Origin: the human T2T-CHM13v2.0 reference genome, Homo sapiens
Strand: one strand, 5' to 3'
Length of the DNA: 64,000 nucleotides
NCBI RefSeq assembly: GCF_009914755.1
Contig: NC_060929.1
Shown here: piece by piece, positions 13,714 through 15,241 of the stretch
Numbering within the stretch: the stretch's first letter is position 1
How the letters are laid out: each line of letters starts with the position of its first letter
Notes under the pieces: model-generated
Database searches by the model: none
What the model was told of the DNA's origin: nothing
Seen by the model: only the letters and a program-made list of their open reading frames with translations
Program-made: the position numbers and the translations under genes

Positions 13714-14060
13714 ATCATGTTGGCCAGGCTTGTCTTGAACTCCTGACCTCAGGTGATCTGCCTGCCTCAGCCTCCCAAAGTGCTGGGATTACAGGTGTGA
13801 GCCACCACGCCTAGCCATGAGTAAAGTCTTAATGGTGCACAGACACACTCATGCTTACCTATCTTCTGTGGCTACTTTCATGTTATAACTGCATGGTTGA
13901 GTATGGCCCCAAAGCCAAAAATACTTATCATCTGACACAGCTTATCATTTACAGAAAAAGCTTGCTGACCTGACCTAAGCCAACTGTATGAGTTCCCTAA
14001 AGCTGCTGTAACAAAGTAGGTGCAATTTATAGTCTCACAGTTCTGGAGGCTGGAGGTCCA
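13714..14060. repeat. Inverted repeat, left arm (347 bp): truncated Alu 5' end + MER58A part + MLT1 end
   Basis: Reverse complement of 14895-15241 with 2 mismatches (13772/15183, 13868/15087). Confidence 0.97.
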
Positions 14061-14392
14061 AAATCAAGGTGTTGGCAGGGTTGGCTCCTTCTGAGGGCTG
14101 TGAGGGAGGGTCTGTTGCAGGCCTCTCTCCTAGCGCTGGTAACTTTAGGTGTTCGTTGTCTTGTAGAAGGCATTCTCTCTGTACCCTACATCATTTTTCA
14201 TTTATGCATGTCTGTCTCTGTGCCCAAATTTCCCCTTCTCTGACACAGTCATATTGGATTAGGGCCCATCCGAAAGACCTCATCTAAACTTGATCATCTG
14301 TAAAGACCCTATTTCCAAATGAGGTAACATTCACAGATATTGGAGGTTAGGACTTCAGTGTCTTTTTAGGGGACACAATTCAATGCATAACA
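13985..14392 (-). mobile_element. MLT1B/C-type MaLR solo LTR (complete copy)
   Basis: tgtatgagttcc...ctcacagttctggaggctggaggtccaaaatcaaggtg...ggggacacaattcaatgcataaca. Confidence 0.85.
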
Positions 14393-14880
14393 CCAGGCTA
14401 CGTTATTTCTCACCTGGACTATTGTAATAGCTTCCTAACGGGTCTCCCATTTTTGCAGCGTAGCTCACCCCACCCTCAAACCCTTATTCTACAGCCAACT
14501 GTCCACTTCCCAGAATAATTATTTCATAGTTCAGATGGGATTGTGTCACCCTCTTAATGGAAACCTTCCAGTGCACATCCAGTGGGTGAAGACCGAGCTC
14601 TGTAACATGGGCTGTGGTGCCGCACAGTCTGTTCTGACTGCCCTGACCACCTACTACTACCCCACAAGCCTTTGCCCTCTCTGCAACGGCCTTACTGACT
14701 TTCAGTTTTTCAAACTGCCCGTGCATCCTTCCTCGCAGGGCCTTGCTGTAAACTGCCCCATGCCTAGGCCATTTTTCACCTCGTCTCTACCTGTTCATGT
14801 CCTCTCTACCTTTCACACTCTATCCTGAGCATCCTTTCTCAGGGAGCCTTCCCTGCCCTGGCTCACTAGGTCACAGGCAC
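14393..14880 (+). mobile_element. L2 fragment inside the inverted spacer
   Basis: tctcacctggactattgtaatagcttcctaacgggtctccc...cagggccttgc...tctcagggagccttccctg. Confidence 0.75.
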
Positions 14881-14894
14881 TGTGATTGGCCATA

Positions 14895-15241
14895 TGGACC
14901 TCCAGCCTCCAGAACTGTGAGACTATAAATTGCACCTACTTTGTTACAGCAGCTTTAGGGAACTCATACAGTTGGCTTAGGTCAGGTCAGCAAGCTTTTT
15001 CTGTAAATGATAAGCTGTGTCAGATGATAAGTATTTTTGGCTTTGGGGCCATACTCAACCATGCAGTTATAACATGAAAGTAGCCATAGAAGATAGGTAA
15101 GCATGAGTGTGTCTGTGCACCATTAAGACTTTACTCATGGCTAGGCGTGGTGGCTCACACCTGTAATCCCAGCACTTTGGGAAGCTGAGGCAGGCAGATC
15201 ACCTGAGGTCAGGAGTTCAAGACAAGCCTGGCCAACATGAT
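14895..15241. repeat. Inverted repeat, right arm (347 bp)
   Basis: Reverse complement of 13714-14060. Confidence 0.97.

What the first reader, a model, noticed from the sequence alone, without database searches (positions are those of the whole stretch)
13714..15241. Young inversion flanked by a 347-bp, 99.4%-identical inverted duplication (possible re-invertible segment)
Seen: 13714-14060 is the reverse complement of 14895-15241 with only 2 mismatches, around an 834-bp spacer. The copied unit is a unique junction (Alu 5' end + MER58A + MLT1 end), so two independent insertions cannot explain it. The left side holds the complete MLT1 but a truncated Alu; the right side holds a truncated MLT1 but the complete Alu and MER58A. 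The L2 in the spacer is on +, while its apparent 3' continuation (13535-13700) and the L2-like sequence after 15511 are on -. Inference: ancestral A-B-C-D became A-(BC)inv-C-D, an inversion that duplicated C. Established: near-identical inverted repeats support recurrent NAHR inversion and gene conversion. The spacer could therefore occur in both orientations, with the non-duplicated ancestral allele as a third state. It may already be listed in human structural-variant catalogues; I cannot check this.
Basis: partly seen in the sequence, partly recalled or inferred. Interest (0 to 1): 0.8.

Follow-up and report, generated by a model that had tools for sequence, protein, structure and literature searches.

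The report
Small human-lineage inversion with breakpoint duplication
An 834-base stretch inside an intron of the human SLIT3 gene was flipped, and 347 bases next to one break were copied in the process; the flip is already listed as a human-chimpanzee difference and belongs to a known, ordinary class of rearrangement.

Summary
Window 13714-14060 is the reverse complement of 14895-15241: 347 nt, 2 transition mismatches, 834-nt spacer. The non-Alu part of the arm has only these two near-identical copies in the whole CHM13 genome.

Three old repeats fix the ancestral order as A-B-C-D and the present order as A-rc(C)-rc(B)-C-D:
- An LTR-type repeat runs unbroken over the left arm/spacer boundary (39 of 39 genomic copies).
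- An Alu runs unbroken over the right arm/flank boundary (16 of 19 other Alu hits).
- An L2-like element is split between the left flank (one strand) and the spacer (the other strand). It re-forms one continuous match when the spacer is flipped in silico.

Both new junctions have no microhomology.

Feuk et al. 2005 (PMC1270012, Tables S1 and S6) already list an 834-bp inverted block in SLIT3 between human hg17 and draft chimpanzee.

Best reading: a single inversion-with-duplication event on the human lineage, of the INVdup / staggered-break type, with the inverted repeat as a by-product. I could not test whether it still flips, or whether chimpanzee carries both arms. Interest is low.

The parts
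13529..13713 (-). Segment A end: the 3'-ward part of an L2-like element that was cut by the left break. The ancestral neighbour of base 13713 is the reverse complement of base 14894.
   Evidence: The profile of 15 genomic copies matches 13529-13655 at model positions 179-308. The joined match runs to the junction and beyond.
13713..13714 (.). Novel junction J1 (A | inverted copy of C).
   Evidence: Arm identity stops at 13714. Microhomology is 0 nt on either side.
13714..14060 (-). Left arm: the inverted copy of C. It is continuous with the spacer, so it travelled with the inverted block. It contains the first 106 nt of the Alu, a middle old repeat (about 13822-13983) and the LTR end (14024-14060).
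14061..14894 (-). Inverted segment B (the 834-nt spacer). It holds the rest of the LTR-type repeat (to about 14393-14400) and the L2-like part (about 14392-14862), now on the + strand.
   Evidence: The same length, 834 bp, is listed as inverted between human and chimpanzee in SLIT3.
14894..14895 (.). Novel junction J2 (inverted B | C). It cuts the LTR-type repeat 37 nt from its end.
   Evidence: Microhomology is 0 nt.
14895..15241 (+). Right arm: C in its original orientation, continuous with flank D.
15136..15453 (+). Full-length Alu whose first 106 nt lie in C. Its target-site duplication is AAGACTTTA(C/T)TCA. Of the two copies of that duplication, the left arm carries only the one that lies ahead of the Alu.
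   Evidence: direct reading.

Best explanation
This is the fossil of one rearrangement on the human lineage. The ancestral order was A-B-C-D, where B is the 834-nt segment and C the 347 nt next to it.

The chromosome broke cleanly at A|B. On the other side it broke in a staggered way, at B|C on one strand or chromatid and at C|D on the other. After fill-in, or by using two chromatids, both ends carried C. The B-C block was then re-joined in reverse by blunt non-homologous end joining, giving A-rc(C)-rc(B)-C-D.

On this reading the 347-nt inverted repeat is a by-product of the inversion and did not cause it. The structure lies in a SLIT3 intron, consists of old transposon debris, and has no evident function.

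Shown:
- the repeat itself;
- the derived order;
- the blunt junctions;
- the orientation difference from draft chimpanzee.

Inferred:
- that it was a single event;
- the break-and-join mechanism;
- that outgroups carry one copy of C.
For: Structure:
- Arms of 347 nt with 2 mismatches, spacer 834 nt.
- Only two copies in the genome. The flank and the spacer are each unique in the genome.

Polarity from repeats:
- LTR-type repeat unbroken over 14060|14061 in 39 of 39 copies.
- Alu unbroken over 15241|15242 in 16 of 19 other Alu hits, and the left-arm piece is 99.06% identical to this particular Alu.
- The anchors of the L2-like family lie on one strand in 15 genomic places against 0 for the reversed-pattern control.
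- Its profile matches A-end and spacer on opposite strands in consecutive model order.
- Flipping the spacer in silico gives one match, score 50.1 against 31.0, with no gap at the junction.

Junctions and outside evidence:
- Both junctions have 0 nt microhomology, as expected for end joining.
- Feuk et al. 2005, Tables S1 and S6: human chr5:168469975-168470808 (hg17) against chimpanzee chr4:175713416-175714249, 834/834 bp, 98.92% match, inside SLIT3. So a second human assembly has the same 834-bp block and draft chimpanzee has the opposite orientation.
- Arm divergence of 0.58% is about half the 1.08% human-chimpanzee divergence of the spacer.
- Precedent: Ranz et al. 2007 (PMC1885836; abstract and passages read). 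17 of 29 Drosophila inversions have inverted breakpoint duplications with a median of 321 bp. In 12 cases only one breakpoint is duplicated. The authors explain this by staggered breaks followed by end joining.
Against: - No outgroup sequence could be read here, so one copy of C in chimpanzee, gorilla and the other outgroups is inferred, not shown.
- Feuk's row gives 834/834 bp. With a plain human-target net and a single-copy chimpanzee I would expect an inverted block of 1,181 bp. This is my inference about how nets work. The 834 may reflect their reciprocal-best filter, or it may mean chimpanzee holds both arms.
- Feuk et al. warn that many of their 1,576 predictions are false positives: only 11 of 60 were supported by BACs. 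This row is absent from the other six supplementary files, so it was apparently not among the 27 regions tested.
- Two mismatches do not exclude arms as old as the human-chimpanzee split (P(<=2) = 0.20-0.28), and gene conversion could hide age.
- The L2-like profile is crude. Posterior probabilities near the junction are low, and a 17-nt deletion relative to the model lies about 28 nt upstream. A loss of up to about 20 nt at A|B cannot be excluded.
- A 347-nt stagger is long for single-strand breaks.
Confidence: 0.6

Rival explanations
1. One event, but replicative (FoSTeS/MMBIR-type template switching). Synthesis reaching the end of A switched to the opposite strand at the end of C and copied C and B backwards to the start of B. 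It then switched back to the start of C and went on.
For: - It gives exactly the observed order with two junctions.
- CNV-flanked inversions (dupINV, INVdup, dupINVdup) are a recognised human complex-SV class (Collins et al. 2017, PMC5338099, passages read).
- Non-homologous inversions with small gains or losses are attributed to FoSTeS/MMBIR in Giner-Delgado et al. 2019 (PMC6748972, passages read) and in the Porubsky et al. preprint (passages read).
Against: Both junctions have 0 nt microhomology and no visible templated insertion. Priming after a switch usually needs a few paired bases. The second switch would have to start exactly at the base next to the first departure point.
Confidence: 0.2
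2. Two steps. First an inverted 347-nt copy of C was inserted 834 nt away, at A|B (a local opposite-strand duplication). Later, homologous recombination between the arms flipped the spacer. The repeat may pre-date the human-chimpanzee split, and the spacer may toggle.
For: - The final sequence would be identical to what is seen, so nothing in the window excludes it.
- Local non-tandem opposite-strand duplications were the commonest non-tandem class in one human genome: 21 of 166 rearrangements, against 8 plain inversions (Frith & Khan 2018, PMC5829575, Table 2 passage).
- Feuk's block is 834 bp, not 1,181 bp. That is what one would see if chimpanzee had both arms.
- Arm divergence does not exclude an age at or before the split.
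- Inverted repeats of 200 bp or more count as NAHR-competent in the Porubsky et al. preprint.
Against: - It needs two events where one suffices.
- The longest perfectly identical tract is 192 nt.
- The inverted repeats of genotyped NAHR inversions range from 654 bp to 24.2 kb. Recurrence is driven by repeat length, and 23 of 32 recurrent inversions have repeats of 10 kb or more.
- hg17 and CHM13 share the orientation.
- No entry for this place turned up in the supplements I could search: T2T inversion re-mapping and HGSVC3 (file cut when stored). Small events may be missing from those tables.
Confidence: 0.15
3. Assembly artefact in CHM13: a falsely duplicated and inverted stretch.
For: None found. 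No reads could be inspected here.
Against: An independent human assembly (hg17) has an 834-bp block in SLIT3 inverted relative to chimpanzee, with the same length as the spacer. The two arms differ at 2 positions, as two real loci would. At 1.5 kb the structure is far shorter than the long reads used for such assemblies; this last point rests on general knowledge and was not tested.
Confidence: 0.02

Closest known systems
Row in Feuk et al. 2005 (PLoS Genet 1:e56, PMC1270012), Tables S1 and S6: putative human-chimpanzee inversion chr5:168469975-168470808 (hg17) in SLIT3
   Same: Same gene and the same length as the spacer (834 bp). 86% repeat content and 98.92% identity to chimpanzee, in inverted orientation.
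   Different: The paper only lists the block as one of 1,576 computational predictions. It was apparently not among the 27 regions tested: the coordinates are absent from the other six supplementary files. The table says nothing about the flanking 347-nt inverted duplication ('% dup' = 0) or about polarity or mechanism.
Inversions with inverted duplications at breakpoints, staggered-break model (Ranz et al. 2007, PMC1885836)
   Same: The duplicated sequence is unique ancestral sequence next to a breakpoint. It sits in inverted orientation at both ends of the inverted block and comes from one breakpoint only, as in 12 of the 18 Drosophila inversions with such duplications. Its size, 347 nt, is close to their median of 321 bp. 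The joins are blunt.
   Different: Theirs are Drosophila inversions, mostly of large chromosomal segments. Here only 834 nt are inverted, in a human intron.
CNV-flanked inversions of human complex structural variation (dupINV / INVdup; Collins et al. 2017, PMC5338099)
   Same: An inversion with a duplication on one flank, formed as one complex event.
   Different: Those were found as rare or polymorphic large variants by jumping libraries. This one is small, sits in two human references, and differs from chimpanzee.
Inverted-repeat-mediated (NAHR) recurrent human inversions (Aguado et al. 2014, PMC3961182; Giner-Delgado et al. 2019, PMC6748972; Porubsky et al. preprint 10.1101/2021.12.20.472354)
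   Same: Highly identical inverted repeats flank an invertible segment. At 347 nt the repeat exceeds the 200-bp cutoff used for NAHR candidates.
   Different: In those cases the repeats existed first and caused the inversion, and they are much longer (654 bp to 24.2 kb; mostly 10 kb or more for recurrent ones). Here the repeat's ends coincide with the inversion junctions, and it was most likely made by the event.
Alu/L1 recombination-mediated inversions between human and chimpanzee (Lee et al. 2008, PMC2603318)
   Same: A small human-chimpanzee inversion with Alu sequence at a breakpoint.
   Different: The two Alu pieces here are copies of one insertion (99.06% identical, co-duplicated with 241 nt of non-Alu sequence). 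They are not two independent elements. The place does not appear in that paper's two supplementary files.

Membership tests
Inversion with breakpoint duplication (INVdup / staggered-break type) | A segment is inverted relative to the ancestral order | tested here: met
   The L2-like profile matches flank and spacer on opposite strands in consecutive model order. The in-silico flip restores one match, score 50.1 against 31.0. Draft chimpanzee has the opposite orientation.
Inversion with breakpoint duplication (INVdup / staggered-break type) | Sequence adjacent to a breakpoint is present twice, in inverted orientation, at the two ends of the inverted block | tested here: met
   The arms are 13714-14060 and 14895-15241. 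The left arm is continuous with the inverted block and the right arm with the outer flank.
Inversion with breakpoint duplication (INVdup / staggered-break type) | The duplicated sequence is single-copy in the ancestral (outgroup) arrangement | not testable with these tools
   No primate genomes are on hand. It is inferred from the truncated copies of the LTR-type repeat and the Alu. The 834/834 length of Feuk's row is ambiguous on this point.
Inversion with breakpoint duplication (INVdup / staggered-break type) | One event: no intermediate allele exists | not testable with these tools
   This needs population haplotype assemblies.
NAHR-mediated recurrent (toggling) inversion | Flanking inverted repeats of high identity, 200 bp or more | tested here: met
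   347 nt at 99.4% identity; the longest perfect tract is 192 nt.
NAHR-mediated recurrent (toggling) inversion | The repeats pre-date the inversion (present in the un-inverted allele or in outgroups) | not testable with these tools
   The repeat ends coincide with the inversion junctions. That argues for co-origin but does not prove it.
NAHR-mediated recurrent (toggling) inversion | Both orientations occur among haplotypes, or on unrelated haplotype backgrounds | not testable with these tools
   Only two human assemblies are known to me, with the same orientation (window). I found no entry in the supplements searched.
Alu-Alu recombination-mediated inversion | Two independently inserted Alu elements in opposite orientation at the breakpoints | tested here: not met
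   The left Alu piece is 99.06% identical to the right Alu, against 72-90% for the 19 other Alu hits. It ends at the duplication boundary and is co-duplicated with non-Alu sequence.
L1 twin-priming inversion | The inverted piece lies inside a new L1 insertion with a poly(A) tail and target-site duplication | tested here: not met
   The inverted block is made of an old LTR-type repeat and an L2-like fragment that are continuous with the surrounding sequence. There is no poly(A) at either junction.
Segmental duplication (usual definition 1 kb or more at 90% or more; recalled) | Length of 1 kb or more | tested here: not met
   The duplicated unit is 347 nt. Feuk's table gives 0% duplication coverage.

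The most novel reading that the evidence does not exclude
The 347-nt inverted repeat is older than the human-chimpanzee split, is kept nearly identical by gene conversion, and the 834-nt spacer toggles by homologous recombination. Human and chimpanzee would then differ only in flip state, and both orientations may still segregate in people. That would make it a recurrent inversion driven by a repeat about half the size of the smallest one documented in the genotyped human set (654 bp). A side effect in either case is a near-perfect 347-bp double-stranded RNA hairpin in SLIT3 pre-mRNA, which would be a strong candidate substrate for RNA editing.
Probability: 0.12. Interest if true: 0.5.

Novelty: already known. 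Interest (0 to 1): 0.22.

Why it matters
It matters little for biology at large. The segment is transposon debris in a long SLIT3 intron, far from any exon in the window, and the inversion has been in a public table of human-chimpanzee differences since 2005.

Its modest value is as a clean worked example. The breakpoints can be resolved to the base from the human sequence alone. They show that a highly identical inverted repeat flanking an inversion can be the product of the inversion rather than its cause. This is a caveat for surveys that count inversions with flanking repeats of 200 bp or more as NAHR-mediated.

Two things would raise the interest. If great apes carry both arms, or if human haplotypes differ in orientation, the locus would show how short a repeat can drive inversion toggling. 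Separately, the near-perfect intronic hairpin may be a human-lineage-specific double-stranded RNA in tissues that express SLIT3.

Tried and rejected
Searches that gave nothing:
- Whole-genome DNA searches with the flank (13500-13713) and the spacer end (14600-14894) found only themselves. The search is too insensitive for old L2 copies, but it does show there is no paralogue.
- Single-sequence nhmmer of flank, spacer and D against the window found no relatives. I therefore took L2-like copies by a two-anchor pattern and built a profile.
- Continuation of the middle repeat behind the Alu could not be shown with three related copies.

Literature:
- No main text holds SLIT3 + inversion + inverted repeat. 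SLIT3 + inversion + chimpanzee gave only two unrelated listings.
- Nothing for this place in the supplements of PMC10150506, PMC12350169 (one PDF unreadable, one file cut when stored), PMC12058530 (no text held) and PMC2603318.
- Three papers were not held when asked for by ids I recalled. Among them is the Cell 2022 inversion paper, and the supplements of its preprint are closed. Its callset, gnomAD-SV, HPRC/HGSVC VCFs and InvFEST remain unchecked.
- Microinversion papers (PMC8755829, outline read) deal with events of 17-33 nt and do not bear on this one.
- Aguado et al. 2014 lists no inversion near this place.

Rejected readings:
- Two independent transposon insertions.
- Alu-Alu recombination.
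- L1 twin priming.
- Chance.

Full report
**1. The observation**

The repeat finder on 12500-16500 reports one long inverted pair, 13699-14060 / 14895-15256, with 834 nt between the arms. A base-by-base comparison shows that real identity runs from 13714 to 14060 against 15241 to 14895. That is 347 nt with two mismatches (13772/15183 and 13868/15087), both transitions and neither at a CpG. Outside both ends the match falls to noise at once. The extra 15 nt come from permissive ungapped extension. The perfectly identical tracts are 58, 95 and 192 nt long.

**2. More than chance, and not two insertions**

- The 231-nt non-Alu part of the arm, searched against the whole 3.1-Gb assembly in which the window lies, matches only the two arms at about 100%. 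The next best of the 15 matches are 69-70% over about 140 nt (other members of an old repeat family) or 35-37-nt pieces at 94-97%.
- The Alu part of the left arm is 99.06% identical over 106 nt to the Alu at 15136-15453 and ends exactly at the arm boundary. The 19 other Alu hits in the window are 72-90% identical to that Alu.
- The other 15 inverted pairs within 10 kb in the window are 75-88% complementary, the usual Alu-Alu background.
- The flank 13500-13713 and the spacer end 14600-14894 are unique in the genome, so no larger paralogous block is involved.

**3. Anatomy and polarity**

Call the flank left of 13714 A, the reverse complement of the spacer B, the right arm C and the right flank D.

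(a) The LTR-type repeat. A search with 13990-14400 returned 40 scored matches out of 4,335 first-look candidates. All 39 non-self matches begin at query position 35-54 and run on to 325-411. They therefore cross the arm/spacer boundary (query 71|72 = 14060|14061) without a break. This is an abundant LTR-type repeat. It spans about 14024-14400. Left arm and spacer are therefore an ancestral contiguity, and the right arm holds only the terminal 37 nt of the repeat (14895-14931).

(b) The Alu. The Alu at 15136-15453 crosses 15241|15242: 16 of 19 other Alu hits span that point by at least 20 nt on either side. It has a target-site duplication AAGACTTTA(C/T)TCA. Right arm and D are therefore also an ancestral contiguity.

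Since there was one C, the ancestor contained B-C-D, and B is now inverted relative to D.

(c) The L2-like element.
- Two 10-nt anchors, one on the + strand of A (13636) and one on the - strand of the spacer (14846), occur on one and the same strand, 110-140 nt apart, at 15 places in the genome. The reversed-pattern control gave 0.
- A profile built from those 15 copies matches A at 13529-13655 on one strand (model 179-308, E 2.6e-4). It matches the spacer at 14855-14354 on the other strand (model 426-921, E 2.6e-11).
- When A and the flipped spacer are joined in a script, the profile gives a single match, model 166-921, with score 50.1. The present order, and an un-flipped join, each give 31.0.
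- The alignment passes the junction without a gap. A 17-nt deletion relative to the model lies about 28 nt upstream, in a stretch of low posterior probability.

So A|B was an ancestral contiguity, cut cleanly or with a loss of at most about 20 nt.

**4. Junctions**

The two novel junctions are 13713|13714 and 14894|14895. Each was compared with the ancestral neighbours of both partners. Microhomology is 0 nt in all four comparisons. No poly(A) or filler is visible.

**5. Outside evidence**

Feuk et al. 2005 (PMC1270012) compared hg17 with the draft chimpanzee assembly by net alignments and listed 1,576 putative inverted regions. I read the abstract, passages of the Results and Methods, and supplementary files 2 and 7.

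- Table S1 holds the row chr5 168469975-168470808 | chimpanzee chr4 175713416-175714249 | 834 | 834 | 0% duplication | 86% repeats | 98.92% match.
- Table S6 lists the same row as lying within SLIT3 (NM_003062).
- The length equals the spacer exactly. The position agrees with my rough conversion of the window's place, which rests on recalled gene coordinates.

This has three consequences:
1. A second, independent human assembly has the same 834-bp block. An assembly artefact in CHM13 is therefore very unlikely.
2. The draft chimpanzee has the opposite orientation, which is the one the repeats identify as ancestral.
3. The inversion as such is already in print.

Caveats:
- The coordinates do not occur in the other six supplementary files, so the region was apparently not among the 27 tested.
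- The authors state that many predictions are false positives: 11 of 60 were supported by BAC sequence.
- The table says nothing about the flanking duplication.
- With a single-copy chimpanzee, a plain human-target net should in my understanding give a 1,181-bp inverted fill. The listed 834 bp may reflect their reciprocal-best filtering, or it may mean that chimpanzee also has both arms. I cannot decide this.

**6. Age**

Two differences in 347 nt (0.58%) is about half the 1.08% human-chimpanzee divergence of the spacer. At 1.0e-9 per site per year this gives 2.9 My (95% 0.35-10.4). At 0.5e-9 it gives 5.8 My (0.7-20.8). These rates are recalled round values. The chance of 2 or fewer differences if the arms were as old as the human-chimpanzee sequence divergence is 0.20-0.28. 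A human-lineage origin is the simplest reading but is not proven by the count, and gene conversion would make the arms look younger.

**7. Mechanism**

The structure is the signature of an inversion that duplicates sequence at one breakpoint.

- Ranz et al. 2007 found such inverted duplications at 17 of 29 Drosophila inversions. The median was 321 bp, and in 12 cases the duplication came from one breakpoint only. They proposed staggered single-strand breaks with fill-in, or staggered chromatid breaks, followed by non-homologous end joining.
- The present case fits in size (347 nt), in one-sidedness and in its blunt joins. I favour this route (0.6).
- A replicative double template switch gives the same order and is the usual explanation for human dupINV/INVdup variants. 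The complete lack of microhomology at both joins counts against it (0.2).
- A two-step route gives the identical sequence and cannot be excluded from the window. In it, an inverted local duplication of C is inserted at A|B and recombination between the arms follows. Opposite-strand local duplications are common (21 of 166 local rearrangements in one genome). But this route needs two events (0.15).

**8. Can it still flip?**

This was not tested. The repeat exceeds the 200-bp cutoff used to call inversions NAHR-compatible. Several points weigh against frequent flipping:
- Its longest perfect tract is 192 nt.
- The inverted repeats of genotyped NAHR inversions range from 654 bp to 24.2 kb.
- Recurrence depends mainly on repeat length, and 23 of 32 recurrent inversions have repeats of 10 kb or more.
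- Both human assemblies known to me share the orientation.
- I found no entry for the place in the supplements I could search. The main small-variant catalogues were out of reach.

**9. Side observation**

SLIT3 is on the - strand, so both arms are transcribed in one intron. A fold of the sense strand of 13664-15291 pairs 346 arm positions in register (MFE -989.8 kcal/mol). A near-perfect 347-bp RNA duplex is far better paired than the usual inverted Alu pairs (75-88% here). It would be a candidate for RNA editing. This is inference only.

**10. Verdict**

The locus is an already catalogued human-chimpanzee micro-inversion of a known structural class. The flanking duplication and the base-exact reconstruction add detail, not a new kind of thing. 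Interest is low. It would rise moderately if apes carry both arms or if humans prove polymorphic.

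Noticed in passing
window 13664-15291, - strand (SLIT3 sense): Both arms lie in one SLIT3 intron transcript. 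The predicted fold pairs 346 positions in register (MFE -989.8 kcal/mol), giving a near-perfect 347-bp double-stranded RNA hairpin with an 834-nt loop. It is a possible RNA-editing substrate.
   Followed up: partly
window 32976-33203 / 33497-33724: An inverted Alu pair only 293 nt apart, 84% complementary over 228 nt. It is the closest-spaced of the 15 ordinary inverted Alu pairs in the window.
   Followed up: no
window 15121-15135 and 15446-15458: The Alu at 15136-15453 has a target-site duplication AAGACTTTA(C/T)TCA with one mismatch. Of its two copies, the left arm carries only the one that lies ahead of the Alu.
   Followed up: yes
window 13984-14023 (and its mirror 14932-14971): About 40 nt lie between the middle old repeat (about 13822-13983, 69-70% to other genomic copies) and the start of the LTR-type repeat (14024). 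They matched nothing else in the searches made.
   Followed up: no
window 16102-16145: A weak match (E 0.03-0.08) of the L2-like profile's 3' region on the - strand of the model. It may be a separate short L2/MIR-type fragment.
   Followed up: no
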